Source: an uncultured bacterium (GTDB lineage Bacteria > Acidobacteriota > Aminicenantia > Aminicenantales > Saccharicenantaceae). Taken from it: DNA of 64,000 nt. The notes under the pieces are model-generated. The model was given only the letters and a program-made list of their open reading frames with translations, had not been told where the DNA came from and made no database searches. Location of the stretch: NCBI GenBank assembly GCA_963805015.1, contig CAWDSL010000030.1, positions 6,258 to 70,257 of the forward strand, given 5' to 3'. Below are positions 50,542 to 64,000 of the stretch, piece by piece. Numbering within the stretch: position 1 is the stretch's first letter; each line of letters starts with the position of its first letter. Made by a program: the position numbers and the translations under genes.

Positions 50542-53382
50542 ATGAAAAACCCGCGTAAAACCCTCCTCGTCGTTTTTTCCGCCGTCTTCTCCCTGGTCCT
50601 GGCCGCCGGCCCCCTCGCCGCCCAAGCGCCCGCCCCGGCCGCGACCTATTCCCTCGACCAGAAGATCCCGGTCGACCCGAGGATCACGGTCGGCGCGCTC
50701 CCGAACGGCCTCCGCTATTGGATCCGCGAGAACCGCGAGCCCAAGAACCGGGCCGAGCTGCGCCTGGTCGTCAACGCCGGCTCGGTCCTCGAGGACGAGG
50801 ACCAGCGCGGCCTGGCCCATGTCGTCGAGCACCTGGCCTTCAACGGCTCGGCCCACTTCCCCCAGCAGAAGCTGGTCGAGTTCATGGAGTCGATCGGCAT
50901 GCGCTTCGGCTCCGACCTCAACGCCTTCACCAGCTTCGACGAGACGATCTACATGCTCAAGGTCCCGACGGACTCGCCGGAGATCATGCGCAACGCCTTC
51001 CTCGTCCTCGAGGACTGGGCCCACGGCCTGACCTTCGACCCCAAGGCCATCGACAAGGAGCGCGGCATCATCGTCGAGGAGTGGCGCCTCGGCCAGGGCG
51101 CCGAGGCCCGCATGCGGGACGCCCAGATCCCGGTCCTGCTCAAGGGCTCGCGCTACGCCGAGCGCCTGCCCGACGGCAAGAAGGAGGTCATCGAGACCTT
51201 CGCCTACGACACCCTCAAGCGCTATTACCGGACCTGGTACCGGCCGGACCTGATGGCGGTCGTCGCCGTCGGCGATTTCGACAAGGCCAAGATCGAGGCA
51301 TTCATCAAGAAGCACTTCGGCCCGCTGGCCGTCCCGCCCGACGCCAAGCCCCGGCCGACCTATCCCATCCCCGACCACGACGAGACGCTCTTCTCCATAG
51401 CCGCCGACAAGGAGGCCTCGCAGAGCGTGGTGGCCGTCTACCACAAGCTGCCGCTCGCGGACCAGGACACCGTCGGGGCCTACCGCCGGATGCTCGTCGA
51501 GCGCCTGTTCAACGACATGCTCAACGAGCGCCTGGCCGAGATCGCCCAGAAGCCCGACCCGCCCTTCCTCGGGGCCGTCTCGAGCCGGGGGCGCTTCGTC
51601 GGCACAAAGGACGTCTACGTCCTGTCGGCCCTCGTCGGCGAGGGCGGCATCGCCCGCGGCCTCCGGGCCCTCTACACGGAAGGGGAGCGGGTGGCCCGCT
51701 TCGGCTTCACCGCGACCGAGCTCGAACGCCGCAAGAGCGAGGCCATGCGCTACTTCGAGCGGGCCGTGACCGAGAAGGAGACCGAGGACTCCAGCGCCTA
51801 CGCCGAGGAGTTCACCCGGGCCTACCTCGAGGGCGAGCCGACGCCCGGCATCCAGTTCGAGTACGACCTCCACAAGCAGTACATGCCCGGCATCGCGCTC
51901 GACGAGGTGAACGCCCTGGCCAGGGAATGGATGACCGACCGCAACCGGGTCATCATGGCCAACCTGCCCGAGAAGCCGGGCGCCAAGATCCCCACCGCGG
52001 CGGAGCTCTCCGCCGTCCTCGAGGAGGTCAAGAGCGCCGAGGTCACCGCCTACGAGGACACGACGACCGACGCGCCGCTCCTCTCCGCGGCGCCCGAGCC
52101 GGGCACGGTCGTTTCCCGGCGCGCGATCGAGGCCATCGGGGCGACCGAGTGGACGCTCTCCAACGGCGCCCGCGTCGTCCTCAAGCCGACCACGTTCAAG
52201 GAGGACGAGATCCTCTTCCGGGCCCTGAGCGCCGGCGGCATCTCGCTCGCCGAGGACGCCAGTCTCGTCCCGGCCAACACGGCCGACCAGGTCGTGGCCG
52301 CGGGCGGGCTCGGAGAGTTCAGCGCCGTCAACCTCGAGAAAAAGCTGGCCGGCCAGGCCGTCCAGATCCGGCCGTCGATCGACGAGCTCGAGGAGGGCCT
52401 CGCGGGCAACGCCTCGCCCAAGGACGCCGAGACGCTCTTCCAGCTCATCCACCTGACCTTCACCGCGCCTCGTCCCGACCCCGTGGTCTTCGACGTCCTC
52501 AAGACCCAGCTCAAGACCTACCTGGAGAACCGCACCCAGAGCCCCGAGACCGTCTTCAGCGACACCCTGCGGACGACGATGCAGCGCGACCAGCCCCGCT
52601 TCCGGCCCATGACGGTCGACGAGATCCCCCAGATGAGCCTGGAGAAGTCGCTGGCCTTCTACCGCGACCGCTTCGCCGACGCGAGCGACTTCACGTTCTT
52701 CTTCGTCGGCAACCTGGACCTGGAGAAGATCGAGCCGCTCGTCTGTACTTATTTGGCTTCGCTCCCGTCGCTCCACCGCAAGGAAACGTGGCGCGACTGG
52801 CGCGTCGCCCCGCCCGAGGGCGTGGTGAAGAAGACCGTGGAGAAGGGCGTCGAGCCCAAGAGCCTGACGGCCATCGTCTTCTCCGGCCCGTTCGCGAACG
52901 ACCCCGGGAACCGCGTCCACATCCGGGCCGCCGCCCAGGTGCTGGAGACGCGCCTGCGCAAGCTCCTGCGCGAGAAGCTCAGCGGCACCTACGACGTCCG
53001 GGTCTCGCCGGGCTACAGCAAGATCCCCCGGGAGGAGTTCCGGATGTCGATCGACCTCGGCACCGACCCGGCCCGCATCGACGAGATGAGCGCGGCCATC
53101 TTCCGCGAGATCAAGTCGCTCCAGAAGAAGGGCCCGACCGCCAAGGAGGTCGAGGAGGTCCGGCTGGGCGAGTCGCGCGACTTCGAAACGAGCAGCCGCC
53201 AGAACGACTGGTGGCTGTCGCAGATCTCCGAGCGCTACCGGGTCGGCGAGGACCCGGCCGCGATCGTGCGCCTGCCCGAGTCGTTCGGCCTGCTGACGCC
53301 GGCCTCGGTCAAGGCCGCGGCCAAGCGCTACTTCGACACCAAGCGCTACGTCCAGGTGACGTTGTACCCGGAGAAGCGCTAG
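50542..53382 (+). CDS. M16 (insulinase / PqqL-like) zinc protease
   Basis: LPNGLRYWI, GSVLEDEDQRGLAHVVEHLAFNGS (HxxEH), NAFTSFDETIY, ERGIIVEE, WYRPDLM; second half LSNGARVVLK. Confidence 0.95.
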   Translation: MKNPRKTLLVVFSAVFSLVLAAGPLAAQAPAPAATYSLDQKIPVDPRITVGALPNGLRYWIRENREPKNRAELRLVVNAGSVLEDEDQRGLAHVVEHLAFNGSAHFPQQKLVEFMESIGMRFGSDLNAFTSFDETIYMLKVPTDSPEIMRNAFLVLEDWAHGLTFDPKAIDKERGIIVEEWRLGQGAEARMRDAQIPVLLKGSRYAERLPDGKKEVIETFAYDTLKRYYRTWYRPDLMAVVAVGDFDKAKIEAFIKKHFGPLAVPPDAKPRPTYPIPDHDETLFSIAADKEASQSVVAVYHKLPLADQDTVGAYRRMLVERLFNDMLNERLAEIAQKPDPPFLGAVSSRGRFVGTKDVYVLSALVGEGGIARGLRALYTEGERVARFGFTATELERRKSEAMRYFERAVTEKETEDSSAYAEEFTRAYLEGEPTPGIQFEYDLHKQYMPGIALDEVNALAREWMTDRNRVIMANLPEKPGAKIPTAAELSAVLEEVKSAEVTAYEDTTTDAPLLSAAPEPGTVVSRRAIEAIGATEWTLSNGARVVLKPTTFKEDEILFRALSAGGISLAEDASLVPANTADQVVAAGGLGEFSAVNLEKKLAGQAVQIRPSIDELEEGLAGNASPKDAETLFQLIHLTFTAPRPDPVVFDVLKTQLKTYLENRTQSPETVFSDTLRTTMQRDQPRFRPMTVDEIPQMSLEKSLAFYRDRFADASDFTFFFVGNLDLEKIEPLVCTYLASLPSLHRKETWRDWRVAPPEGVVKKTVEKGVEPKSLTAIVFSGPFANDPGNRVHIRAAAQVLETRLRKLLREKLSGTYDVRVSPGYSKIPREEFRMSIDLGTDPARIDEMSAAIFREIKSLQKKGPTAKEVEEVRLGESRDFETSSRQNDWWLSQISERYRVGEDPAAIVRLPESFGLLTPASVKAAAKRYFDTKRYVQVTLYPEKR

Positions 53383-53410
53383 TCCGCGAACCGGCCTCCG
53401 GCGCTCTCCC

Positions 53411-53674
53411 TCATTCGTAGTGCGTCCACATCCTGATGACCTTGACCGTTTTGATATCGGGCAGAACCTGGTAGACGAGACGGTGTTGGATGTTTATGCG
53501 CCGCGAATAGGCGCCGGCGAGGTCCCCCATGAGCTTTTCGAAGGGCGGGGGATCCTGGAAAGGATCTTCGGTCAGGATATCGAGCAGTATCTCCGCCTTG
53601 GGGCGCAGACCCGAAGCCGTCAGCTTCTTGGCGTCGCGCTGGGCCTGTCGCGTAAAGACGAGCTTCCAGCTCAC
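53411..53674 (-). CDS. yoeB: YoeB/Txe-family toxin
   Basis: MSWKLVFTRQAQRD...PPPFEKLMGDLAGAYSRRINIQHRLVYQV...MWTHYE; GTGA overlap. Confidence 0.95.
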   Translation of the reverse strand: MSWKLVFTRQAQRDAKKLTASGLRPKAEILLDILTEDPFQDPPPFEKLMGDLAGAYSRRINIQHRLVYQVLPDIKTVKVIRMWTHYE

Positions 53675-53913
53675 CACTCGAGCTCGGACCGGCATTTGCC
53701 GACGGGTTCCTTCAGGCCCTTGAGAATGGACTCGCGCATCCCCGGGATCGAGACGAGGAAGAGCGTTTCCTGGATGGAGCGCCAGTCGTCCTCGGAGACG
53801 AGGACGGCGTTGGCCCTCTTCCCCGTGATCTGGATGGGCTCGTGGGACGCCGCGGCCTGGTCGAGGAGCTTGTAGAGCTTGGCCCGGGCCTTGCTGGCCG
53901 TCAACGTCGTCAT
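53671..53913 (-). CDS. yefM: YefM/Phd-family antitoxin
   Basis: MTTLTASKARAKLYKLLDQ...PIQITGKRANAVLVSEDDWRSIQETLFL.SIPGM. Confidence 0.95.
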   Translation of the reverse strand: MTTLTASKARAKLYKLLDQAAASHEPIQITGKRANAVLVSEDDWRSIQETLFLVSIPGMRESILKGLKEPVGKCRSELEW

Positions 53914-53932
53914 CGCGGTGACCTCAGCCGAA

Positions 53933-53961
53933 AGCGTACCAAAAAGCGTACGTTCAGTCAA
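53933..53961 (-). promoter_or_regulatory. yefM-yoeB promoter with two GTAC operator cores 12 bp apart
   Basis: TTGACT-N17-TACGCT; GTAC at 53936 and 53948, resembling the paired TGTACA boxes of the E. coli yefM-yoeB operator. Confidence 0.7.
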
Positions 53962-54117
53962 GCGCGGCGCCTCGACGGGCTCCGTCCATCCCCATGAGGA
54001 CCTCCAGATCGCTCGCGTTCTACTTATCAGACGGCTCTCGGGGACGGCCACTTCTCAGCGTATGGCCGCACAAGCCGCTCTCAAACCGACTAAACTCTAA
54101 AGCCTGGAGGAAGAACC

Positions 54118-54888
54118 ATGCCCAGAGAGTCCGGCCGATCGCGTGCCTGTGCGCGTGCTCTCGTTCTTGCGGCCTGTAATTCCGGACCGTCGTCGTCCGG
54201 CCCTGATAAATCCACGGTCCTCGAGCGTAAAGCCGAGTTCCTCGAAGAGCTCGTGAGCCGGCGCGGCCCTGCGGCCAGGACCTGGAGCGAGCTCGAGGCG
54301 GCCGCTCCCGAGCGGCTCTGGCCGACCGAGGTCGTCTGGAAGGACGGCGAGGTCAAGATCACGGGAAGCGCCCTTTCCTACGAACTCCTGGCCGACTTCA
54401 TCTCGCGCCTCGAGGAAGGCTCCCGCTTGACGGATGTGGATCTCCGGTCGTCCGTTCAGAAGAAGGGCCGGGCCGGGGACTACTACGAATTCACTGTCAC
54501 GGCCCGCGCGGCAGGCGATGGGGAAGCCCGGCCCTCCCGGGGGTCCGCCCCGACGGAGGCGCGCCTGGCCGAGCTCGAACTAGCCCTCTCGGAACGCCCC
54601 CAGACCGCCGACGGCCTCCGCGAGCTCCAGCGCCTCGCTTCGGACTCGGGCCTGCGGATGACCAAGTGCACGTTCGGGCAGGCGCTCACGGGCGAGTTCG
54701 CCGGCGAGCAGCCCGCCCTTATCGAGATCGAGGGGAGCCGCGGCGAGCTCGGCCGCTACCTCAGCGGCATGGTCGAACTGCCCCATTTCCGGTACGTGAA
54801 GGAGCTCCGCGTCAAGGCCGTCGATCCCCGGGACGCCCGTTCTCCCGTCAAGGCCTCGATGACGGCCCTAGCTTACTTTCCGAACTGA
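54118..54888 (+). CDS. PilN-like plus PilO-like fusion, putative lipoprotein
   Basis: LAAC lipobox; PERLWPTEV...VKITGSALSY..LADFISRLE..SRLTDVDL (PilN-like); LQRLASDSGL...IEIEGS..ELGRYL..MVELP (PilO-like). Confidence 0.65.
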   Translation: MPRESGRSRACARALVLAACNSGPSSSGPDKSTVLERKAEFLEELVSRRGPAARTWSELEAAAPERLWPTEVVWKDGEVKITGSALSYELLADFISRLEEGSRLTDVDLRSSVQKKGRAGDYYEFTVTARAAGDGEARPSRGSAPTEARLAELELALSERPQTADGLRELQRLASDSGLRMTKCTFGQALTGEFAGEQPALIEIEGSRGELGRYLSGMVELPHFRYVKELRVKAVDPRDARSPVKASMTALAYFPN

Positions 54889-54911
54889 GGCCCTCGGGCG
54901 GGCGCCCCGGC

Positions 54912-55395
54912 TCAGCCCTTACCCGGCGGGTCGGGCTGGGGCGAGAGCTTGATGAGCGCCTGGCGGTTGAAGATGCGGATCGAGGGAAACTCGATGACGG
55001 CGGGGAGCCAGGTCACTTCGTCGTCGATCTTGATGTAGTCCGTGGGCGGAGCCCCCTTGACGGCCTTCGCCACCGGCGCCTTGAGCACGCCGTTGGTGCC
55101 CGTGGCGATGAGCTTGCCCTTGGCGTCTCGGATGCCGCAGTCGCCGATGATCCCACAGTCCCCGAGGATGCCCGCGGCGCCCGGGCGCCGCCAGGGCCTT
55201 GGCCGCTTTCTTGAAGGACGTGATCGAGAAGACCGTGCCGTCGGGGGTGGTCAGCTTGAAGCTGCCCGGCCCGAGCTTCTCGCACTTCGTCCCCTTGGGG
55301 ATGGCCACGGACTTGCCCTCGGCCAGGGCCGTGCCCGCGACCGAGACGAGGAGCAGCGCTCCCACGACCAGAACCAGGAAGGCAGACCTCTTCAT
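54912..55395 (-). CDS. Small secreted protein ending LSPQPDPPGKG, one apparent +1 frameshift at ~55190
   Basis: Signal peptide; repaired frame ILGDCGIIGDCGIRDAKG...DYIKIDDEVTWLPA...LIKLSPQPDPPGKG, stop at 54912-14. Confidence 0.6.
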
Positions 55396-55587
55396 GAAAC
55401 CTCCTTCTCTGCTGCCGGCGAGATAACCCTTATGCTTACAATATGGGTCCGGAACGGGGACCTGTCAAGAGGCCGCCGGGCGGGCCAAGGGACCAGGGAG
55501 GCGGCTCGCTCGGGCGGGGGATTGACCCCTGGTCCGCGCTAGGCTACCATCATGCCGTCATCGCGCCGTCAATAGGAAGGGGTCGCC

Positions 55588-56385
55588 ATGAAACGCCTGA
55601 TCGGGCCGCTTTCCGCCGTGTTTCTCGGGATCTTAAGCGCCGCATCGTGCTCGAGGCCGGCCAAGCCGGTCGTCGTGAGCCAGGTCGTAGGGCCGATCGA
55701 GGTCGATAGCTATCTCCTTTACGACGCCAAGAGCGGGGAGGCCGCGCTCGTCGACGCGCCCGGCCCCATCGACCGGCTGGAGTCCGAGATCGGGGCGAAG
55801 GGGCTCTCGGTAAAATACATCTTCGTCACCCACGCCCACTGCGACCACGTCATCGGCCTGACGGCCCTCCGGCAGCGCTTCCCCGGGGCCAAGGTCTGCT
55901 TCTCCCGCGAGGAATACGAGGACATGCCCCTCTACGAGCGCTGGGAGGAGAAGCTCCCGCCCCAGGAAGTGGCGCGGATGAAGACCGCCCTGGGGCCGGG
56001 CGGGGATCCGGCCCTGGCCGCCCTGCTGACCCTCGATTTCGACAGCATCGGGAAGCCGGACATCTTCGTGTCCGACGGCCAGGTCTTCGAGCTGGGCGGC
56101 CTCGAGGTCCGGGCCATTCTCGCTCCGGGCCATTCCCGGGGCAGCGTGTGCTATCGGGCCGACGGCGTCCTGTTCTCGGGCGATGTCCTCTTCGCCGGGC
56201 AGGTCGGGCGGACCGATCTCATGGACGGCGGCAGGGAGGCCATCGTCAAGTCGGTGCGCCGCCTCTACGCCGAGCTTCCCGACGGCACGAAGGTCTATCC
56301 AGGCCACGGGCCCGCGACGACGATCGGCGCCGAAAAGAAGGGGAACGAGGAAGTCTCCGCGACTTCCATCGCTATCAAGAACTGA
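55588..56385 (+). CDS. MBL-fold metallo-hydrolase (glyoxalase II-like), lipoprotein
   Basis: THAHCDH, APGHSRGS, FSGDVLF, GRTDL, YPGHG. Confidence 0.92.
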   Translation: MKRLIGPLSAVFLGILSAASCSRPAKPVVVSQVVGPIEVDSYLLYDAKSGEAALVDAPGPIDRLESEIGAKGLSVKYIFVTHAHCDHVIGLTALRQRFPGAKVCFSREEYEDMPLYERWEEKLPPQEVARMKTALGPGGDPALAALLTLDFDSIGKPDIFVSDGQVFELGGLEVRAILAPGHSRGSVCYRADGVLFSGDVLFAGQVGRTDLMDGGREAIVKSVRRLYAELPDGTKVYPGHGPATTIGAEKKGNEEVSATSIAIKN

Positions 56386-56389
56386 GCTC

Positions 56390-57514
56390 TCAGAGCTTCC
56401 AGATGATCTTGTACCGCTTGAGGACGGGATTGCCGTCGTCGTCCTCCTCGGCCGCGTAGAGCCGGTCCTTGTGGATGAGCGGCTGCTTGTCCGGCACGGC
56501 GGCCCGGGCGATGTAGCGGCCTTCCGGATCGAAGACGTCGAGGTAGTAGCCTCGCCGCCCCGGCGGGCGCTCCCAGCACAGGACGTAGACGCGGCCGGCG
56601 TCGTCGGCGAGGAGATAGCGGAAGGCCGGGTAGTGCTTGGGGACCTTCATGTTCTGCAGGACGGCCGGAGGGGCGCCTTCCGTGCGTTCCTCGACGTCCT
56701 CCTTGGCGACGGCGACGGGATCCCGGTCCATTTCGATCCTGAGGACGAGCTTTCCCGCGGCGTCGTACCTGCGGAGCTCGCTCTTGACCGCGTAGCCGCA
56801 GACGACGCCGCCGTCCGGGAGGATGGCCCAGCGGACGATCGGGAAGAACGGATCGAACCCGTCCCTGGACGAGTTCGCGAGCGGGGACGACTCGAGCGCG
56901 TAGAGCGCCTTGAACCCGGCGTCGACCTTCCTCAGCTCGTAGCGCGGATTCTCCTCCTCCATCTGGAGTAGATAGACGTAGAAATTCCCCGCCGGATCCG
57001 GCCGGGCGTCGGCGAAGCTCATGGAGGCCACCGAGATGTCGCGGACATGCCGGCCGTCCGCCTTGAAGATGAGGACGCTCCGCCGGACGTCGACCACGGC
57101 CAGTCCGTCCGGATCCATCCAATGGATCGACATGGGCATGGTGTATTCCCCGGGGCCCTGGCCGGTCTTTCCGATCGAATGCAGGAACTTCCCCTCACGG
57201 TCGAAGGCTTTGACGGTCTTGTCCTTCTGGTCGAGAACGAAGATGGTCCCATCGGGGCCCACGGCGATCGAATTGATCGAGGCGAAGACGTAACCGGCAG
57301 CCCCCTCGCCTCCGATGGCCAGCTCCTCCACGAGGGAGAAAGCGCCGGCTCCGTAGACGGGCTTGGCGGGGTTCTTGACGACGACGACCTGGCCCTCTTT
57401 CTCGATGCGGCCCTTCCAGTCGGCCTGCTTCTGGGGAGAGGCCGGGCCGGCGAAGATGATGGCCGCCGCCAAAAGAAGGAAAATCGGACGTGCGGACGAA
57501 GGCGAAGCTCTCAT
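56390..57514 (-). CDS. Secreted 6-bladed beta-propeller protein
   Basis: Signal; WKGRIEKEG, IAVGPDGTIFVLD, GQGPGEY, DVFDPEGRYI. Confidence 0.8.
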   Translation of the reverse strand: MRASPSSARPIFLLLAAAIIFAGPASPQKQADWKGRIEKEGQVVVVKNPAKPVYGAGAFSLVEELAIGGEGAAGYVFASINSIAVGPDGTIFVLDQKDKTVKAFDREGKFLHSIGKTGQGPGEYTMPMSIHWMDPDGLAVVDVRRSVLIFKADGRHVRDISVASMSFADARPDPAGNFYVYLLQMEEENPRYELRKVDAGFKALYALESSPLANSSRDGFDPFFPIVRWAILPDGGVVCGYAVKSELRRYDAAGKLVLRIEMDRDPVAVAKEDVEERTEGAPPAVLQNMKVPKHYPAFRYLLADDAGRVYVLCWERPPGRRGYYLDVFDPEGRYIARAAVPDKQPLIHKDRLYAAEEDDDGNPVLKRYKIIWKL

Positions 57515-57620
57515 GGACACCTCCCCCGAGAACACGCGTTGCTTCCCTTTAATGATTATGGGCCGGCGCCCGGGGGCTGTCAAATGGGAGCGAGTCCAGG
57601 CTCGCCGGTCGGCGCCGGTC

Positions 57621-58853
57621 TTATCCCAGCGCCACTTCGCCGATCTTGATCTTGTCCCTGTCCGCGACGCCCAGTCCCAGGCTTGCGGCGAGGTCCAGGA
57701 AAGCGGCGCTCCGCCGCCTGGGATCGTCCACCTGCTGGGTGCCCCGGGCCATCCGCTCCTTGACGATGACGTCGTGGGCCACGGCGTCCACGGCCACGGG
57801 GTCGGTGCCGAGGAGCAGGAGGTTGGCGTCGTAGATGAACTTGGGATTGGCCCCGGGCCCGCCGTCGTAGCAGGCCTGGAGCCCGTCGACGACGTTGAGG
57901 ACGACCTTGTCCCGGAGCACGGGGAAGGCGCAGGGCTCGGCCACCGACTTCATCCAGAGCTTGTGCAGGCGCCCGGTGTTGCTGAGCGCGCCGTAGGACA
58001 GGTTCTTGAGGCAGCAGGTGGTCGTGGCCCCGGCGTTCTTGAGGATGGGGACGTTGACGATCTTGGTCACGACGTCCGTGACGATCTTGCTGAAGTAGGA
58101 GGCCTTGCCTTCGTTGATCATGTAGCCCAGGGTCTCCGCGTCGTACTTCTGCTCGACCTCGGCGACGTAGGGCAGGGCCTCCCGGTCGATGTTGTCCTTG
58201 GCCCAGAGCTCGCCCTTCTCGTCGTAGAACTTGCCGTTGGGGCCCATCATCTCCGTGCCCAGGATGCGGATGCCGGGGAAGCGCTCGGCCGTGAACCCGG
58301 CCTCCGTGAGCTGGAACAGGCGCCGGTCCCAGATGACGATGTTCTCCTTGCGGACGCCCGCCGCGAGCAGGCCCTCGATAATGGCGTCCACGACCTCGGG
58401 CTTGGTCGAGAGCAGCTTCTCCCCGATGGGATTGACCTTGATGCCGACGACGTCCTTGGGCCCGACGAACTGGCCCCAGGCCTTGCCCGGCTTCTTCTGT
58501 CCGGTGAGCTCGGCCATGCCGGCGGCGAGCTCTTTGCGCACCCGGGCCCCGTCGATGGGCTGCCCGACGGGGTTGGCCCCGGTCTTGACCCGGACCACCT
58601 TGCCCGGGTACTTCCCAGGCAGCGACCCCGCCACCCGGGGGATCGAGCGGACCTCGTCGATGTTGGTCTTGATGTCGGGAGGGGCGGCAGGCACCTTGCG
58701 GTCCTCGGGCTTATCCTGGCCTATCAGGCGGGGGGCGATGGCCGCCCCGGCCGCGGCGACCGCGGCGGAGCCCAAGAACTTGCGGCGTGAGAATTTATCC
58801 GAAGGACAAGCGTCTTTCTCTCCTGTGAGGGTCACGATGTCGTCTTTGCGCAT
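57621..58853 (-). CDS. DUF362 domain protein with Tat signal
   Basis: SRRKFL; DVVGIKVN, IVIWDR, IVNVPILK..G..T.CLKNLSYG, DPVAVD. Confidence 0.88.
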   Translation of the reverse strand: MRKDDIVTLTGEKDACPSDKFSRRKFLGSAAVAAAGAAIAPRLIGQDKPEDRKVPAAPPDIKTNIDEVRSIPRVAGSLPGKYPGKVVRVKTGANPVGQPIDGARVRKELAAGMAELTGQKKPGKAWGQFVGPKDVVGIKVNPIGEKLLSTKPEVVDAIIEGLLAAGVRKENIVIWDRRLFQLTEAGFTAERFPGIRILGTEMMGPNGKFYDEKGELWAKDNIDREALPYVAEVEQKYDAETLGYMINEGKASYFSKIVTDVVTKIVNVPILKNAGATTTCCLKNLSYGALSNTGRLHKLWMKSVAEPCAFPVLRDKVVLNVVDGLQACYDGGPGANPKFIYDANLLLLGTDPVAVDAVAHDVIVKERMARGTQQVDDPRRRSAAFLDLAASLGLGVADRDKIKIGEVALG

Positions 58854-58880
58854 GGGGGCCTCCTGGGGGTGGATGGGGGA

Positions 58881-58909
58881 AGTATAGGGGAGGGAGGGGG
58901 AAATGGCAA
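58881..58909 (-). promoter_or_regulatory. sigma70 promoter of the DUF362 gene within a G-run tract
   Basis: TTGCCA-N17-TATACT on the minus strand. Confidence 0.6.
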
Positions 58910-58992
58910 TGGAGGTTGGTTGATTCCTGGAAAAGTGGAACCTATAATCAACTAGATGGGAAGAACACTACAGTCTGGGGGAAACTTTAATC

Positions 58993-61834
58993 TTGGATAA
59001 AAGGGCCATTGCTTATTGGGGCGCTCTTTCGTTCTTCTTGAGCGTCTTTGCTTTGGACGCAAAGCAGAGTCCCGTGTCCTTTTTTGATGATATAGCAAAT
59101 TCAACTCGGCTATCAGCACAAGGCGAGCACATTAAAGCGCTCGCTCTGCTTAAGAATCGGCTTGAACTTACCCGTCTTGATCACGTGCCATTTGCCGAAC
59201 AAAAATGTCTGGTGAGACTGGCAATGCTTCAATGGGATATCGGAAATATTCCTGAGTCCCTTCTTTGCTTTCTTGATGCCAGAGAAGCTTATCGCAAAGT
59301 GAGCGATAGGCGGTCCGATGAATTCTGTTCTAAATGCATCGAGATTATCAGGCTCTATGCCCAAGCTAAAGAAGAGCGGATACGCCAGCATTATGATCTT
59401 TCGACAAGGTGGCTTGAGCGGGCGATCCAATTGGGGAGGGAGACCGGATTTCCGAATTTTTGAACTGAAATGCTTAAGGCAACTAGGCGCCAATTCGTGG
59501 GATAGAAACCAATTAGCCGATTTCTTTAGGTGCAACGCGGCTGGATTGAAATTAGCGGTGGATTTCAACAACAAAATCGAGGAGGGGCGATATCTGAATA
59601 ATATTGGGATCTATTATAAAAGGACCGGATATCTTTCGCACGCCGCACAATACCTAGAGAAGGCGCAGAAGATAGCCAGGCTCTCATGCGATAAGCCAAC
59701 CGAAGCGGAAAGTCTTAGCAATCTCGGACTGCTTTATCGTGATATTGGCGATAGCGGCAAAGCACGCTCTTTTCTATACAGCGCCTACTGTATCGATAAT
59801 GAAATCGGTGATTTGAAGGCGCTGGCCATTGATTTGGTTAATATGGCTGCCGTCTCACTAAGAAAGGGTATCGATGAAAAAAGTCAACAAGAGCTGATCG
59901 ATGCTTTGGATTTGTATCAACGAAGTTTGAATACAGATCGATTGGAGCCCTATTTCAAGTTCGTCGCTCTCAATAACAAAGGAGTCATACTCAACGAACA
60001 GGGTATGCATGTTGAAGCCCGTGACCATTTCCTGCGGGCTATTAAGGTCCTTGGCGAGAATGAGCATCTTCTGGAAAGATGCTCTGCGCGTAACAATATC
60101 GCCTCTACCTATCTGTATGAAAACGATTATAAGAACGCCTTAGATCATTTCCGGCTCGCTAGGGAAATGTGTATTACGGCTTTTCCATCCTATCCTTTGA
60201 TGGAATCATATGTAGGGATGGGCCAATGTTATGAGAACAGCCATGACAACACAGCGGCGCTTTTATGCTATCAAAACGCCATGGAAGTCCTGGGCGGGCA
60301 AATCGCCAAGATCTCCTCTGACATATTTATGATCGGCTATGCACGTAACAAGTACAACGCCTTCCATGCGATGATTAATATCCTTATCGAAGAGTCCGGC
60401 ACACGGCTCTCTCGGCCTGTATTTGCTAACTTGTTCAGCGCCATCGAAAAGGCAAAAGCTAAAGCATTCCTGGAGAAGCTACGAAGATCTACGAACAAGA
60501 GTCATCAAGGCGACCAACTAGATACGATAAGCAGAATAGGTACCAATCGCAAACTCGAAAACTATGAGGGCGAAGAAGAAAACAACCTCATGATGAGTCC
60601 TTCGGAAAATCCAATTCAATGGGAGTTTGATGGACGCACGAGTCCGGATCTCCTCCTCGAGGAAACGCAGAAGCGCTTGATCGACGATAAGACAATTGTA
60701 CTGGAATACTTCCTTGGAGACGATCGATCCTGCCTTCTTTCGATTTCTAAAGGAGCATTCCGATTGTATCTTTTGCCGGGCCAATCGGAGATATTTCGAT
60801 CAATACGAGGATTCCTAAAGACATTGTCCGACCCTGGTATCCAGGGTAGTTATGGCCAGGAGGCCAATGAGCGAATCGTTAGAACACTTCTTCCTTCGTC
60901 TCTTCTCGAGGAATTGAAGGGATATCATTCCCTCATTATCATGCCCGACGGAGTGCTCAATTATCTTCCTTTTGAGGCATTGCGCATTACCGATGGAAGG
61001 GACGAGCGTTTCTTGATTGAGACCTGGACGATATCGTATTGTCCTTCCGTATCGATCATGAAGACACTGCAAAATAGAAGGACCGGAGGGCGCAGGGACC
61101 AGCCGATCTTAGCGATCGGGGATATCCGATATGATCGAGACCCTGGCGGAAAAAGTAAAGTGGCCGGCGGCGGAAGCAGAGATGATCAAACGAATAGCTA
61201 TGGAGCCGGTGGCGGCGCATTACATGATTTGCCATTTAGTAAAAGGGAAGTCGCCACTATCACGGAGCTTTTCTCGAAAACGAGAGTCCGTGTATTGCTG
61301 GGACACGACGTAAATGAAAGGGCTGTTAAAAGTTTGCCATTAAGGGAATATGGAATAATTCATTTTGCCTGCCATGGGTATTACGACGAAATCGATCCTT
61401 TAATGACAGCGTTGATGTTAACATCTGGTCCGGCAGAGATAGAAGATGGTCTTCTACGAATAGAGGAGATCGAAGATTTGGATATTGGAGCCGACCTGGT
61501 TGTTTTGTCAACTTGCCGTTCCGGGAGGGGGTATCTCGAAAACGGCGAGGGACTCATTAATCTGGCTCGTCCATTCTTCTTCGCCGGTGCTCGTTCTGTA
61601 ATTGCATCCCTTTGGCCGATCAGTGACAAATCAACGGCGAGGTTTATGGGGGAATTCTATAGAGCTCTTAAAAACGGCCATAAGATCGGGGATGCTTTAA
61701 GGAACGCCAAAATCAGGATGATCCAGTCCTCTCTGGCTCATCCCTTTTTCTGGGCGGGCTTTGTGCTCCAGGGAAATCCGGTGATCTCGAAATCACGCGT
61801 CATCTCTGGGAACATCCCTAATCCTCTGTCATGA
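58993..61834 (+). CDS. Signal-peptide TPR-CHAT (caspase-like) protease, one apparent +1 frameshift in a T5 run (59457-59461)
   Basis: N-terminal hydrophobic signal; TPRs (EGRYLNNIG, AESLSNLG, ARNNIA); EKAKAKAFL; IIMPDGVLNYLPFEAL; IIHFACHG (His); LVVLSTCRSG (Cys); AGARSVIASLWPISD; HPFFWAGFVLQG. Confidence 0.92.
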
Positions 61835-62516
61835 CAAACCTGGCCAAATTAGATTCCTTGATATCATCGGCTCCAGAATAGGCCGTGACCATCCAAAAGT
61901 ATGCTTTTCCCGGCTGCAGTATTGACCGGGCTTCTTCTGAGAATTGAATTTGAGGAACTTCTGTTTTGCCGCTTGTCCAGACCGGCAGCAGAGCGTCATC
62001 AAAGAGCTCTAGGATATAATAGCGGGCCGAAGCGTAAGGGTTCCATCGAAAAATTAATTTATCTGTGATATTGTGCGAAACCGTCGGATATTCCAGAATG
62101 ATATCCATATTCTCTTCTCTGAACTGATATGAGACATAATTATGTTGCGTAATAACCAATATTGAAACGGCGATCATTAAGCAGCCGGCGATCAGCGACG
62201 AAACACGCGCAGTAAACAATTGCCGCGGACGATAATGAAGGGGACTTTTCAAAAAGCGTGAACTATGGTCCTCAGTACTCGATTCTTGCTTTGTTTGTTT
62301 GTCGTACTCCATGATCGTTATTAATAAATCGAAAGCTCCTCGACACTTGGGACATCCCGATATGTGGTCGACAATTTTAGTCTTCAAGCGATTCGATGCT
62401 GAAGGCGCGAATGAAGCGACCAATTCCTTTGAAGAAGGGCAATGGGTTTTAGACGAAGCATTTTGCGCGGGGATCTTCCGCAAGAGATCTAGGAGATCTT
62501 TATTGCTCATGTTCAT
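61818..62516 (-). CDS. ZAS (zf-HC2) anti-sigma factor with TM and extracytoplasmic Ig/FN3-like (DUF928-reminiscent) domain
   Basis: HCPS...HISGCPKC (HxxxCxxC); TM VSSLIAGCLMIAVSILVIT; FRWNP..ARYYILELFD...LQPGKAYFWMVTAY; overlaps the ECF stop. Confidence 0.8.
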   Translation of the reverse strand: MNMSNKDLLDLLRKIPAQNASSKTHCPSSKELVASFAPSASNRLKTKIVDHISGCPKCRGAFDLLITIMEYDKQTKQESSTEDHSSRFLKSPLHYRPRQLFTARVSSLIAGCLMIAVSILVITQHNYVSYQFREENMDIILEYPTVSHNITDKLIFRWNPYASARYYILELFDDALLPVWTSGKTEVPQIQFSEEARSILQPGKAYFWMVTAYSGADDIKESNLARFVMTED

Positions 62517-63045
62517 CGGGGATTCCTGCGTTGTGCAAATATTTGCGAATATCGGCCAAGCCTCTATAGAGCAAGTTACGGATCTTATCTTGGCTCATAT
62601 TGAGATAGCTGGCGATCTCACGAATATTCAGGTTTAGAAGATATAGTTTTACAACTCGCCGTCTGGACTTGATGAGATGTTCCACAGCGTTCCATAGAGC
62701 CTCTGACATAGCGCTTTTGCGGATAGCCTCGCCGTCGTAATATGACTTTGTTTCTGAGATATGGTTATGCTTTTCATGTCGGAGCAGTTCCTCTTCTCGT
62801 CGGTTCTTACGGAATTGGTCTATGATCGCCGTGTAAACGATCTTTTTAATATATGGCCCATGATTATGGATCACCCTATCCGTGCATATAATTTTCCATA
62901 TCCGGACTTTCACTTCTTGGACGACGTCCTCGGGATCTAAGCCGTATTTTGGAAGATTGTAATTATGAATAAGAGAGTTTATTAACCGATCGTAGCCATT
63001 AAGAATTCCGTGGAATTCTTCTTCCCTTTTTCGGCTAACGTCCAT
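62500..63045 (-). CDS. ECF-type RNA polymerase sigma factor
   Basis: PEDVVQEVKVRIW (region 2), YTAIIDQFRK, REIASYLNMSQDKIRNLLYRGL (region 4). Confidence 0.92.
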   Translation of the reverse strand: MDVSRKREEEFHGILNGYDRLINSLIHNYNLPKYGLDPEDVVQEVKVRIWKIICTDRVIHNHGPYIKKIVYTAIIDQFRKNRREEELLRHEKHNHISETKSYYDGEAIRKSAMSEALWNAVEHLIKSRRRVVKLYLLNLNIREIASYLNMSQDKIRNLLYRGLADIRKYLHNAGIPDEHEQ

Positions 63046-63150
63046 AGAAATTTCAGCAGCCTGAATGCATATGTTGTTATTCTATTAATATAGATGAAAT
63101 CAATGAAGGGGAATTCTCACTCGAGATTCTAAAAATTAGCTGGAAAGCTA

Positions 63151-63173
63151 GCATGTCCAGGTAATGGACATGC
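63151..63173. promoter_or_regulatory. 9-bp inverted repeat, operator candidate, in the divergent intergenic region
   Basis: GCATGTCCA-ggtaa-TGGACATGC. Confidence 0.5.
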
Positions 63174-63360
63174 ATTTGTCAACTAGAATTGGCAGATTTT
63201 TTAAATGTCCTCATGGCGAATTCAAGAGTGATCTAAGTGCTAAAAATTGAGCTATATAATGTTTAGCGGAGTAACACAGAAAGGCCCAATTCTCTGCATG
63301 TGATCTCATCGTTGACATCTTGGACCGGATAAATAAGATATTGGTTAATTAAGCGCATAG

Positions 63361-64000
63361 ATGCACGAACTCTCCAAAGACAACCTCCTCCGCTCCTGGA
63401 AGGACATCTCCGCCTACCTGGGGTGCGATGTCCGGACCTGCCACCGCTGGGAGGAAAGGCACGGCATGCCCGTCCACCGGGCCGAGGGGGGAGAGCGGAA
63501 ATCCCCCGTTTTCGCCTATAAGGACGAGCTCGACGCCTGGTTCAAGGAGACCTTCCGGAACTCCCACCCGAACGGGGAGAAGGCCAAGCCCGAGCGCCCC
63601 CGCCTGGCCTGGATCCTAGGGATCGCCGCCGTGGTCGTCCTGGCCGGGGCCTTCGCCCTCTACAGGGAGGTTGGGGCTCGCCGCCAGCCGGCCGGTTTCG
63701 AGATCGAGGGCTCCGTCCTCATCGTCAAGGACAAGTCCGAGCGCGAGCTCTGGCGCTTCGATACCGGGGTCGACAACCTCGAGACCGACGCCTACTACCA
63801 TGCGAACTTCCAGGTCATCCACAAGAGCACGGGCAACATCCTGCCCATCATCGCCATCCGGGACATCGACGCGGACGGGGACCGGGAAGTGCTTTTCGCC
63901 CTCAGGCGGCAGTCCGACCAGACCGGCGAGGGGCTGCTCTATTGCTTCGACCGCAAAGGCGAAAAACGATGGGAGTTCAAGGCCGGCGGGCCGCTCGTCT
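63361..64000 (+). CDS. 3'-partial membrane protein: 'SWKDI' HTH-like domain, TM, FG-GAP / propeller-like extracytoplasmic domain (absent from the ORF track because it has no stop)
   Basis: My translation: MHELSKDNLLRSWKDISAYLGCDVRTCHRWEERHGMPVHRAEGGERKSPVFAYKDELDAWF...LAWILGIAAVVVLAGAFAL...DIDADGDREVLFA...LYCFDRKGEKRWEF. Confidence 0.85.
   Translation, partial: MHELSKDNLLRSWKDISAYLGCDVRTCHRWEERHGMPVHRAEGGERKSPVFAYKDELDAWFKETFRNSHPNGEKAKPERPRLAWILGIAAVVVLAGAFALYREVGARRQPAGFEIEGSVLIVKDKSERELWRFDTGVDNLETDAYYHANFQVIHKSTGNILPIIAIRDIDADGDREVLFALRRQSDQTGEGLLYCFDRKGEKRWEFKAGGPLV

What the first reader, a model, noticed from the sequence alone, without database searches (positions are those of the whole stretch)
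58993..63045. ECF sigma, ZAS/TM anti-sigma and exported caspase-like TPR-CHAT protease: candidate caspase-triggered envelope signalling cassette
Seen: three overlapping genes in one AT-rich block. The ECF sigma is coupled (17-bp overlap) to an HxxxCxxC anti-sigma with one TM and an extracytoplasmic beta domain. A convergent TPR-CHAT gene (17-bp overlap at the stops) has an N-terminal signal and both catalytic motifs (HFACHG, LSTC). Established: CHAT domains are caspase-clan His-Cys proteases. In type III-E CRISPR the TPR-CHAT Csx29 cleaves Csx30, which sequesters the ECF-like CASP-sigma. ZAS/TM anti-sigmas are typically released by regulated proteolysis. Inference: a CRISPR-independent system in which a TPR-gated periplasmic caspase-like protease acts as site-1 protease on the anti-sigma's outer domain. 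ECF-CHAT neighbourhoods occur in other genomes, but I know of no experimental description of this wiring.
Basis: partly seen in the sequence, partly recalled or inferred. Interest (0 to 1): 0.8.

Follow-up and report, generated by a model that had tools for sequence, protein, structure and literature searches.

The report
Split sigma switch with exported CHAT protease
Three tightly linked genes (an alternative sigma factor, its membrane-bound inhibitor and an exported caspase-like protease) form a conserved, self-regulating envelope signalling unit. It looks like a split version of the one partly studied system of this kind, DdvA/DdvS of Myxococcus, and how the protease acts is still untested.

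Summary

- **Linkage:** the trio is kept together in every related locus examined, 6 metagenome contigs and 31 loci from the same order.
- **Compartment:** CHAT orthologues carry N-terminal signal peptides. The anti-sigma's outer domain models as an Fn3-like beta-sandwich.
- **Closest relative:** the nearest solved structure to the CHAT protein is DdvA of Myxococcus xanthus, a fused ZAS-TM-TPR-CHAT anti-sigma published in 2024.
- **Promoters (new here):** a bipartite ECF-type motif (GTGAGAATT-N17-TCTxT) occurs exactly twice in the 3.48-Mb genome. One copy lies upstream of sigma and one upstream of CHAT. CHAT also has a consensus sigma-70 promoter.
- **Divergence (new here):** the cassette is hypervariable within one species, 64-81% protein identity against 99% in the flank.

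Direct cleavage of the anti-sigma by CHAT remains an inference, at about 30%. Both halves are under purifying selection, so it is recent or an assembly error.

The parts
58787..58818 (+). Candidate ECF-type promoter for the CHAT gene: GTGAGAATT (58787-58795), 17-nt spacer, TCTTTC (58813-58818). It lies inside the 5' coding region of the oppositely oriented DUF362 gene.
   Evidence: GTGAGAATT occurs only twice in the 3.48-Mb genome, here and upstream of sigma, with the same 17-nt spacing to TCTxT. It is conserved in L002, L003 and, with a weaker -10, L006. It forces rare AT-ending codons in DUF362 (inference).
58920..58948 (+). Sigma-70-type promoter of the CHAT gene, TTGATT-N17-TATAAT
   Evidence: Conserved with identical spacing in L001, L002, L003 and L006. 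It is one of only 24 near-consensus sites in the genome.
58993..59463 (+). CHAT gene, 5' piece (frame 1, 156 aa): TTG start, signal peptide (58993-59052), first TPR-like helices. It ends at TGA just after the T5 run.
   Evidence: dN/dS is 0.23 against L001.
59457..59461 (+). Run of five T where the two CHAT reading frames meet (a one-base frame break)
   Evidence: The intact orthologue L002 is collinear across the junction. No reads were available.
59462..61834 (+). CHAT gene, main piece (frame 2, 790 aa): TPR array, then the CHAT domain (about 60866-61777), with catalytic His in HFACHG (61361-61378) and Cys in LSTC (61505-61516)
   Evidence: Pfam CHAT E 2e-67. His and Cys are invariant in 62 homologues. 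The model of the L002 orthologue (pLDDT 81) matches DdvA best, then Csx29, then separase.
61818..62516 (-). Anti-sigma factor, 232 aa. It has an N-terminal zinc-type domain (Cys26 at 62439-62441; H51-x3-C55-x2-C58 at 62343-62366). The TM helix is at 62148-62204. A short linker follows, with a near-universal Arg (residue 132/133, about 62118-62123). The C-terminal Fn3-like domain is at 61821-62096.
62500..63045 (-). ECF sigma factor, 181 aa, translationally coupled to the anti-sigma (17-bp overlap)
   Evidence: dN/dS is 0.09.
63079..63120 (-). ECF-type promoter of the sigma/anti-sigma operon: GTGAGAATT (63120-63112), 17 nt, TCTATA (63094-63089), then TAGAAT (63084-63079)
   Evidence: The bipartite motif is conserved, with a non-conserved spacer, upstream of sigma in about 25 loci from several families of the order.
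63132..63152 (.). Conserved palindrome CATGTCCA-N5-TGGACATG just upstream of the sigma promoter; function unknown
   Evidence: kept in L001 and L002
58860..63360 (.). Low-G+C, hypervariable island that holds the whole cassette
   Evidence: G+C is 43-50% against 63-72% in the flanks. The same holds in L001 and L002. Nucleotide identity to L001 is 76-88% inside and 98% outside.

Best explanation
This is a self-contained, autoregulated envelope signalling module, a split form of the DdvA/DdvS system.

**Resting state.** The ECF sigma is held at the membrane by a zinc-type (Cys-His-Cys-Cys) single-pass anti-sigma. That anti-sigma's only periplasmic part is a roughly 95-residue Fn3-like domain. The TPR-CHAT protein is exported by a signal peptide and is made constitutively from a consensus sigma-70 promoter.

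**Proposed activation (inferred).**
1. The TPR array senses a periplasmic ligand and/or binds the Fn3 domain.
2. The caspase-like His-Cys site is switched on.
3. The anti-sigma is cut in its short juxtamembrane linker or outer domain (site 1).
4. An RseP-type M50 protease finishes the job (site 2), and sigma is freed.

**Output.** Free sigma reads its own bipartite promoter (GTGAGAATT-N17-TCTATA) in front of sigma/anti-sigma, and a second copy in front of CHAT. This gives positive feedback.

**Status of each step.**
- Shown here: gene linkage, predicted topology, folds, invariant catalytic and zinc residues, the two promoter copies, and presence of an M50 protease.
- Inferred: binding between TPR and Fn3, the cleavage itself, the signal, and any further regulon.

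**My odds.**
- The three genes work as one unit: about 0.9.
- CHAT acts upstream of sigma release: about 0.5.
- CHAT itself cuts the anti-sigma: about 0.3.
For: **Linkage.**
- The arrangement sigma -> anti-sigma -> <- CHAT is found in all 6 metagenome contigs looked up, in two different genomic contexts.
- It is found in 11 of 11 same-genus loci.
- All 20 further loci from other families of the order, or paralogous copies, carry the three genes. In 19 the order is the same; in L036 CHAT lies upstream, co-directional.
- A second, high-G+C copy of the module exists in the same genome.

**Same compartment.**
- The CHAT N-termini of the window, L001, L002, L003 and L006 are signal-peptide-like. 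L004 has a lipobox.
- 46 of 62 homologues have an N-terminal hydrophobic segment. Several of the rest look like truncated gene calls.
- The anti-sigma model has one TM helix followed by a confident (pLDDT >90) Fn3-like domain.

**Competent parts.**
- The CHAT His and Cys are invariant.
- Anti-sigma residues C26, H51, C55 and C58 are invariant. This is the same CHCC ligand set described for DdvA (PMC11506125).
- M50 site-2 protease candidates are present in the genome.

**Precedent.**
- DdvA is the only CHAT chain in the PDB hit by sequence (8rot_B, E 2.8e-4).
- It is the top fold match (8rot_A, E 1.8e-15).
- In DdvA the TPR-CHAT is fused to the anti-sigma, a gene-fusion argument for a direct functional link.

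**Regulation.**
- The 9-mer GTGAGAATT occurs twice in 3.48 Mb. Both copies are in the cassette, facing sigma and CHAT, with identical spacing.
- The motif is conserved across about 25 loci.
- A second copy lies upstream of CHAT in L028, and upstream of a response-regulator/CHAT operon in L004.

**Selection.** All three genes are under purifying selection: dN/dS is 0.09, 0.38 and 0.24.
Against: - No biochemical evidence exists for this family.
- Even for DdvA, CHAT as site-1 protease is only a hypothesis. H862A and C907A variants behaved like wild type, and no signal-induced autocleavage was seen (PMC11506125, section read).
- The ECF-type promoter in front of CHAT fits an output or effector role as well as feedback.
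- The sigma shows no detectable similarity to DdvS or any solved sigma at E<=0.001.
- No protein fusing this Fn3-type domain to CHAT was found among the long hits examined.
- An earlier check in this scan, on a related triad in other DNA, priced 'protease cuts anti-sigma' at only 9%.
- In this genome the CHAT gene is broken by a one-base frame shift, which may be real.
Confidence: 0.4

Rival explanations
1. CHAT is mainly the output of the pathway. The Fn3 domain of the anti-sigma is the sensor. Another protease, or a conformational change, releases sigma. Sigma then induces the exported CHAT protease, which acts on some other periplasmic or foreign substrate.
For: The only two genome-wide copies of the promoter 9-mer are in front of sigma and CHAT. 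ECF-motif copies precede CHAT in L028 and L004. No other convincing regulon member was found.
Against: CHAT also has a near-perfect, conserved sigma-70 promoter directly upstream, one of 24 such sites in the genome. It is therefore probably made before induction. In DdvA the TPR-CHAT is physically part of the anti-sigma (PMC11506125). The two roles are not exclusive: FecA is both sensor and target in FecIR signalling (established knowledge).
Confidence: 0.25
2. The TPR-CHAT protein is a non-cleaving partner of the anti-sigma. It acts as an RseB-like guard or co-receptor that binds the Fn3 domain. Its protease activity is directed at itself or at a ligand precursor, and a housekeeping protease performs site-1 cleavage.
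For: TPR arrays and Fn3 domains are protein-binding modules. The Fn3 surface motifs (FRW, YYILELFDxxLLPVW, YFWMVTA) are more conserved than the cytoplasmic domain. The anti-sigma has the size and topology of RseA (established knowledge).
Against: The strictly invariant catalytic dyad argues that proteolysis matters. There is no evidence for which substrate.
Confidence: 0.2
3. In this particular genome the module is defunct. The frame shift in CHAT is real, so the cassette is a fresh pseudogene, whatever the family does elsewhere.
For: The assembly reads a stop after the T5 run. The second CHAT cassette of the same genome also shows several frame breaks, and they are not at long homopolymers.
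Against: Both halves have dN/dS of about 0.23-0.24 and no other lesion. One-base homopolymer differences also break genes in the sister assemblies: the G-run in the L002 HTH gene, and many sites in L001. This is typical of long-read assembly error. Other long genes checked by motif look intact: mfd 1143 aa, gyrB 799 aa, uvrA 983 aa.
Confidence: 0.33
4. The three genes are neighbours by chance or by shared horizontal transfer only, with no functional coupling.
For: The cassette is a low-G+C island that may move as a block.
Against: Linkage is kept in every homologous locus examined, down to 21-25% anti-sigma identity, in different genomic contexts and in high-G+C paralogues. The genes share a promoter motif. 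A fused precedent exists.
Confidence: 0.03

Closest known systems
DdvA/DdvS of Myxococcus xanthus (PMC11506125; PDB 8rot, 8rw5)
   Same: An ECF sigma with a single-pass anti-sigma whose cytoplasmic domain carries a Cys-His-Cys-Cys zinc site. A periplasmic TPR-CHAT with a His-Cys dyad. An RseP-type site-2 protease in the genome. DdvA is the best sequence and fold match for this CHAT protein.
   Different: Here the TPR-CHAT is a separate, signal-peptide-bearing protein encoded convergently. The anti-sigma carries only a small Fn3-like outer domain. The sigma is not detectably DdvS-like. There is no adjacent CBASS/CRISPR island. The paper reports fused DdvA-like proteins only in Myxococcota and one Comamonas; this split family is dense in an Aminicenantes-type order.
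Type III-E CRISPR Craspase: Cas7-11, Csx29 (TPR-CHAT), Csx30, Csx31, CASP-sigma (PMC10028731)
   Same: A TPR-CHAT protease genetically tied to an ECF-like sigma and its inhibitor. Csx29 is the second-best fold match.
   Different: Craspase is cytoplasmic and RNA-guided. Here there is no Cas7-11, no Csx30/31 homologue and no CRISPR context. The protease is exported and the inhibitor is a membrane ZAS protein.
RseA/DegS/RseP/RseB control of sigma-E (established knowledge)
   Same: A single-pass anti-sigma of about 220 aa with a periplasmic domain of about 100 aa. Site-1 then site-2 proteolysis. An autoregulated sigma operon with a GGAACTT-N16-TCTRA-like bipartite promoter.
   Different: The proposed site-1 enzyme is a clan-CD cysteine protease with a TPR sensor, not a PDZ serine protease. 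It is encoded next to the sigma and carries the sigma's promoter motif.
FecA/FecR/FecI cell-surface signalling (established knowledge)
   Same: The accessory envelope protein is both part of the sensing path and a transcriptional target of the ECF sigma.
   Different: There is no TonB-dependent receptor and no FecR domain. The anti-sigma is ZAS-type.

Membership tests
ECF (group IV) sigma-70 factors | [quoted passage not shown] | tested here: met
   Pfam Sigma70_r2 (E 1.3e-5) and Sigma70_r4_2 (E 6e-8). TIGR02937 at 57.8 bits against a cut-off of 42.9. No curated ECF subfamily model reached its cut-off.
ECF (group IV) sigma-70 factors | Co-transcribed cognate anti-sigma and an autoregulatory bipartite promoter | tested here: met
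   17-bp overlap with the anti-sigma gene. Conserved GTGAGAA(T/A)(T/A)T-N17-TCTATA upstream of sigma in about 25 loci. Use of the promoter by this sigma is inferred.
ZAS (zinc-binding) anti-sigma factors | N-terminal H-x3-C-x2-C plus a fourth upstream ligand | tested here: met
   C26, H51, C55 and C58 are invariant in 34 homologues. The Pfam zf-HC2 profile is only weakly hit (5 of 34 members, best E 0.024).
ZAS (zinc-binding) anti-sigma factors | Binds zinc and its sigma | not testable with these tools
   Needs biochemistry or a multimer model.
CHAT / clan CD caspase-like proteases | CHAT domain with a conserved catalytic His and Cys | tested here: met
   Pfam PF12770 E 2e-67. H in ACHG and C in LS(A/T)C are invariant in 62 homologues. 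Fold matches are DdvA, Csx29 and separase.
CHAT / clan CD caspase-like proteases | Proteolytic activity | not testable with these tools
   No assay was possible. In this genome the gene has a frame break.
DdvA-type anti-sigma (M. xanthus) | ZAS domain, TM helix and periplasmic TPR-CHAT in one polypeptide | tested here: not met
   The anti-sigma is 232 aa with an Fn3-like outer domain. TPR-CHAT is a separate convergent gene. The cassette is therefore not a member. It works like a split version.
DdvA-type anti-sigma (M. xanthus) | TPR-CHAT fold of the DdvA periplasmic domain | tested here: met
   The model of the L002 orthologue (64% identical to the window's protein; pLDDT 81, pTM 0.77) has 8rot_A as top Foldseek hit, E 1.8e-15. 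8rot_B is the only CHAT chain hit by sequence.
DdvA-type anti-sigma (M. xanthus) | Cognate sigma related to DdvS; regulon is a CBASS/CRISPR defence island | tested here: not met
   No PDB sigma is hit at E<=0.001. No defence-system family above noise in the cassette or its flanks. The promoter motif is found only at sigma and CHAT.
Type III-E Craspase | Cas7-11 (gRAMP), Csx30 and Csx31 beside the TPR-CHAT; cytoplasmic location | tested here: not met
   The flanking genes are DUF362, beta-propeller and HTH-TM-beta-propeller proteins. CHAT has a signal peptide.
Regulated intramembrane proteolysis of anti-sigma factors | Site-2 (M50, RseP-type) protease present | tested here: met
   Three PF02163 matches in the genome; the best is C13:36077-37345 in a 475-aa frame, E 5e-46.
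Regulated intramembrane proteolysis of anti-sigma factors | Signal-dependent site-1 cut of the periplasmic part | not testable with these tools
   Only a near-universal Arg about 9-10 residues after the TM helix was seen. It is a candidate site, no more.

The most novel reading that the evidence does not exclude
A stand-alone, exported caspase-like TPR-CHAT protease is a ligand-gated site-1 protease. It cuts a ZAS/Fn3 anti-sigma in the periplasm and so releases an ECF sigma. This would be an envelope-located, CRISPR-independent counterpart of the Craspase-Csx30-sigma circuit. The strain-level hypervariability of the cassette would reflect diversifying recognition of a variable ligand, from phage, competitor or kin. 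Because protease and substrate are separate proteins, this split form would make the unproven DdvA mechanism directly testable.
Probability: 0.27. Interest if true: 0.8.

Novelty: new variant of a known kind. Interest (0 to 1): 0.6.

Why it matters
- **A new entry point to sigma release.** Release of ECF sigma factors by proteolysis is a central theme of bacterial envelope signalling. All established site-1 enzymes are serine or metallo-proteases.
- **A testable form of the DdvA hypothesis.** A caspase-clan protease in that role has been proposed only for the fused DdvA. There it could not be tested because the signal is unknown and protease and substrate are one chain. A split system allows a direct test: co-expression, Cys-to-Ala controls and a reporter on a defined promoter.
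- **Reach.** The family is common in an uncultured Aminicenantes-type order (43 of 61 genomes) and patchy across the phylum (14 of 201).
- **A second question.** The cassette behaves as a low-G+C, fast-diverging allele at a fixed chromosomal site. That raises the question of what variable signal it reads.

Tried and rejected
- **Fusion search for the anti-sigma's outer domain.** 427 representative clusters carry the domain. The long hits I scanned against Pfam are generic Fn3/Ig-repeat surface proteins, some with weak DUF928 matches. None of them carries CHAT.
- **Literature on DUF928 and CHAT.** Nothing useful was found.
- **Relation of the sigma to DdvS or other solved sigmas.** No hit at E<=0.001.
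- **Wider regulon.** Relaxed motif scans gave a few sites, for example C24:426479(-) 22 nt upstream of the ribosome-binding site of a flavodoxin-like gene, and C24:77812(-). They lack the full 9-mer and may be chance.
- **Known defence systems.** PADLOC gave only weak TPR and BovA-like hits.
- **tRNA genes.** No tRNA gene lies in the window. Integrase genes and flanking repeats were not searched for. The island sits at the same site in relatives, so a recent one-off insertion is rejected.
- **Assembly chimera as the cause of the low G+C.** Rejected, because L001 and L002 show the same low-G+C cassette between the same high-G+C flanks.
- **Programmed frameshifting.** Rejected as unlikely, because the orthologues L001, L002, L003, L004 and L006 read straight through the corresponding point.

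Full report
**1. What is there**

The region 58.9-63.4 kb is a sharp low-G+C block, 43-50% against 63-72% in the flanks. It holds three genes.
- The ECF sigma is at 62500-63045(-), 181 aa. It matches Sigma70_r2 and Sigma70_r4_2, and TIGR02937 above its cut-off.
- The anti-sigma is at 61818-62516(-), 232 aa, and overlaps sigma by 17 bp. No Pfam family was hit at E<=0.01.
- The convergent TPR-CHAT gene has a stop region that overlaps the anti-sigma's by 17 bp. Pfam CHAT scores E 2e-67.

The CHAT gene is read in two frames that meet at a run of five T (59457-59461). The upstream piece (58993-59463) and the downstream piece (59462-61834) align end to end with an intact 931-aa orthologue, with no other lesion.

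**2. The frame break**

The indirect evidence is as follows.
- Both pieces show purifying selection against a sister strain, dN/dS 0.23 and 0.24. The gene was therefore functional until very recently.
- The sister assemblies carry one-base indels that break genes. L001 has them throughout, and L002 has one in a G-run of the neighbouring HTH gene. The source's contig names and the 30-contig genome suggest long-read assembly.
- Against this, the genome's second CHAT cassette has several frame breaks that are not at long homopolymers.

I put an assembly error at about two in three.

**3. Is the linkage real?**

Homologues of the anti-sigma were found in metagenomes. All six long-enough contigs carry sigma -> anti-sigma -> <- CHAT. 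The loci are L002, L003, L006 and L007 in the same chromosomal context, and L004 and L005 in a different one between mfd/surA-type genes and a response regulator.

In whole genomes of the same order the anti-sigma is present in 43 of 61 genomes and 14 of 16 genera.
- All 11 same-genus loci fetched have the trio.
- All 20 further loci from other families, or paralogous copies, also have it. One variant, L036, has CHAT upstream and co-directional. Several loci have a second CHAT gene.

Across an even sample of the phylum the family is patchy, 14 of 201 genomes. Source labels of homologues point to Aminicenantes.

**4. Topology and folds**

The CHAT N-termini of the window, L001, L002, L003 and L006 are signal-peptide-like, and L004 has a lipobox. 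Among 62 full-length homologues, 46 have an N-terminal hydrophobic segment. Several of the rest look like truncated gene calls. This rests on a heuristic; SignalP was not available.

The anti-sigma model (34-sequence alignment) shows the following, in order:
- N-terminal helices;
- a disordered stretch;
- one long helix that includes the TM segment (residues 105-123);
- a short low-confidence linker;
- a confident beta-sandwich (residues 141-230, pLDDT >90).

The best PDB matches of that sandwich are fibronectin type III domains, which a profile search confirms weakly.

Invariant residues are C26, H51, C55 and C58. The Fn3 motifs FRW, YYILELFDxxLLPVW.S and YFWMVTA are nearly invariant down to 25% overall identity. 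An Arg 9-10 residues after the TM helix is near-universal.

A model of the intact L002 CHAT orthologue (pLDDT 81, pTM 0.77) shows an N-terminal helix, about 13 TPR-like helix pairs and the CHAT domain. Its best PDB matches are DdvA (8rot_A, E 1.8e-15), then Csx29 of Craspase, then separase. By sequence, DdvA is the only CHAT chain in the PDB that is hit.

**5. Regulation (new here)**

Directly upstream of CHAT there is TTGATT-N17-TATAAT (58920-58948). It is kept with the same spacing in L001, L002, L003 and L006 despite 36-40% protein identity. It is one of only 24 near-consensus sigma-70 sites in the genome.

Upstream of sigma there is a different bipartite element, GTGAGAATT-N17-TCTATA (63120-63089). 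Its two boxes, but not its spacer, are conserved in about 25 loci from several families. This is the pattern expected of the ECF sigma's own promoter.

The 9-mer GTGAGAATT occurs exactly twice in the 3.48-Mb genome. The second copy is at 58787(+), 206 nt upstream of the CHAT start. It has the same 17-nt spacing to TCTTTC and points at CHAT.
- It lies on the opposite strand of the DUF362 gene's TAT-signal codons.
- It is kept in L002 and L003, and, with a weaker -10, in L006.
- The codons it imposes (GAT, AAA, TCA) are unusual for a gene with about 90% G+C at third positions. That last point is my inference.

In L028 a second motif copy precedes CHAT. In L004 two copies drive a small secreted Cys-rich protein and a response-regulator/CHAT operon.

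CHAT is thus probably made constitutively and also induced by the sigma. No other convincing regulon member was found.

**6. An unexpected population feature**

The flanking DUF362 gene is 99% identical in protein between the window and L002, and about 98% identical in DNA among the window, L002 and L001. Inside the cassette, protein identity between the window and L002 falls to:
- 81% for sigma;
- 65-67% for the anti-sigma;
- 64% for CHAT.

Against L001, synonymous divergence is 0.41-0.59 in the cassette and 0.10 in the flank, with dN/dS of 0.09-0.38.

The low G+C is shared by the alleles. In milder or stronger form it is shared by many relatives' cassettes, for example L015 at 42% and L023 at 24-38% beside 64% flanks.

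The cassette is therefore an old, divergent allele set kept or exchanged at one chromosomal site. That pattern is usual for loci under diversifying or frequency-dependent selection. What drives it here is unknown.

**7. Mechanism**

The best reading is a split DdvA-like switch. The exported TPR-CHAT and the Fn3 ectodomain of the anti-sigma meet in the periplasm. A signal read by the TPR array activates the His-Cys site. The anti-sigma is then cut outside the membrane, an M50 protease completes the release (candidates are present), and sigma activates its own operon and CHAT.

The fusion of the same parts in DdvA supports a direct link. However, the paper itself shows only the following:
- removal of the TPR-CHAT domain exposes DdvA to RseP;
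- catalytic-dyad mutants behaved like wild type;
- no signal-induced autocleavage was seen.

The rivals are CHAT mainly as induced effector, and CHAT as a non-cleaving partner or guard. Neither is excluded. An earlier check in this scan of a related triad gave direct cleavage low odds.

My odds are 0.9 for one functional unit, 0.5 for CHAT acting upstream of sigma release, and 0.3 for CHAT cutting the anti-sigma.

**8. Comparison and novelty**

The cassette is not a member of the DdvA family in the strict sense. The defining fusion is absent, the sigma is not DdvS-like, and there is no defence island. It is not a Craspase system either.

It is a new variant of a known kind. In the searchable literature, only four papers mention both a CHAT domain and ECF, and all concern DdvA or type III CRISPR systems. 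Within this scan, similar split triads have been noted many times in other phyla. The general idea is therefore not new to the project.

This instance adds four things:
- order-wide strict linkage;
- an Fn3-type anti-sigma;
- the two-copy promoter;
- the intraspecies hypervariability.

Noticed in passing
G000:C15:106300-110089 (locus L008): A second, high-G+C (about 70%) paralogous module in the same genome. It has a sigma-like ORF, an HxxxCxxC anti-sigma with the same Fn3-type C-domain (…VKGRIYVWTVSAQDEDS…) and a convergent CHAT gene. There are at least two or three frame breaks. Sigma region 4 and the anti-sigma lie in one open frame.
   Followed up: partly
window 58860-63360 compared with L001 and L002: The cassette is a hypervariable allele within one species. 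Synonymous divergence is 4-6 times that of the flank. Recombination-like boundaries coincide with the G+C switch. The cause is unknown.
   Followed up: partly
window 63361-63999 (+), continuing beyond the window: A divergent neighbour encodes an N-terminal HTH (weak MADS1/excisionase-like hit), a TM segment and a beta-propeller (Beta-prop_CGLA / FG-GAP-like). It looks like a membrane-bound one-component regulator. It has its own TTGACA-N16-TAAGAT promoter at 63312-63339 and is syntenic with the cassette in L002, L003 and L006.
   Followed up: partly
window 63132-63152: A perfect palindrome, CATGTCCA-N5-TGGACATG, lies 12 nt upstream of the sigma promoter's -35 box. It is kept in L001 and L002 and may be an operator.
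   Followed up: no
L004:5985-6451 and L004:10896-11426: In the more distant cassette type, two near-identical copies of the ECF motif (GAGTGAGAAAATT…ACGTCTATA) face a 132-aa secreted cysteine-rich protein and a response-regulator gene followed by CHAT. No copy faces sigma itself.
   Followed up: partly
L022, L023, L024, L026, L028, L031, L034, L035: Several relatives carry two CHAT genes, one on each side of the sigma/anti-sigma pair.
   Followed up: no
G000:C24:426479-426508 (-) and C24:77812-77841 (-): Weaker copies of the promoter motif (CTGAGAATC-N17-TCTATC). The first is intergenic, just upstream of the ribosome-binding site of a flavodoxin-like gene. The second lies in another low-G+C patch. 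They are possible extra regulon members or chance matches.
   Followed up: partly
window 52500-57600 compared with L002: Synteny with the 98%-identical sister strain stops just beyond the DUF362 gene. L002 has a HEAT-repeat gene where the window has beta-propeller and metallo-beta-lactamase-fold genes. The wider neighbourhood is therefore also variable.
   Followed up: no
L001 (GCA_023156085, labelled Desulfobacterales): This public MAG contig is 98% identical to the window's flanks and riddled with frameshifts. Other homologues' source labels point to Aminicenantes, so its taxonomic label looks doubtful.
   Followed up: no
window 61784-61834: The C-terminal tail of CHAT differs in length and frame between alleles: the window ends …NPVISKSRVISGNIPNPLS and L002 ends …NPAF. 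The 17-bp stop-to-stop overlap is therefore not a conserved feature.
   Followed up: partly
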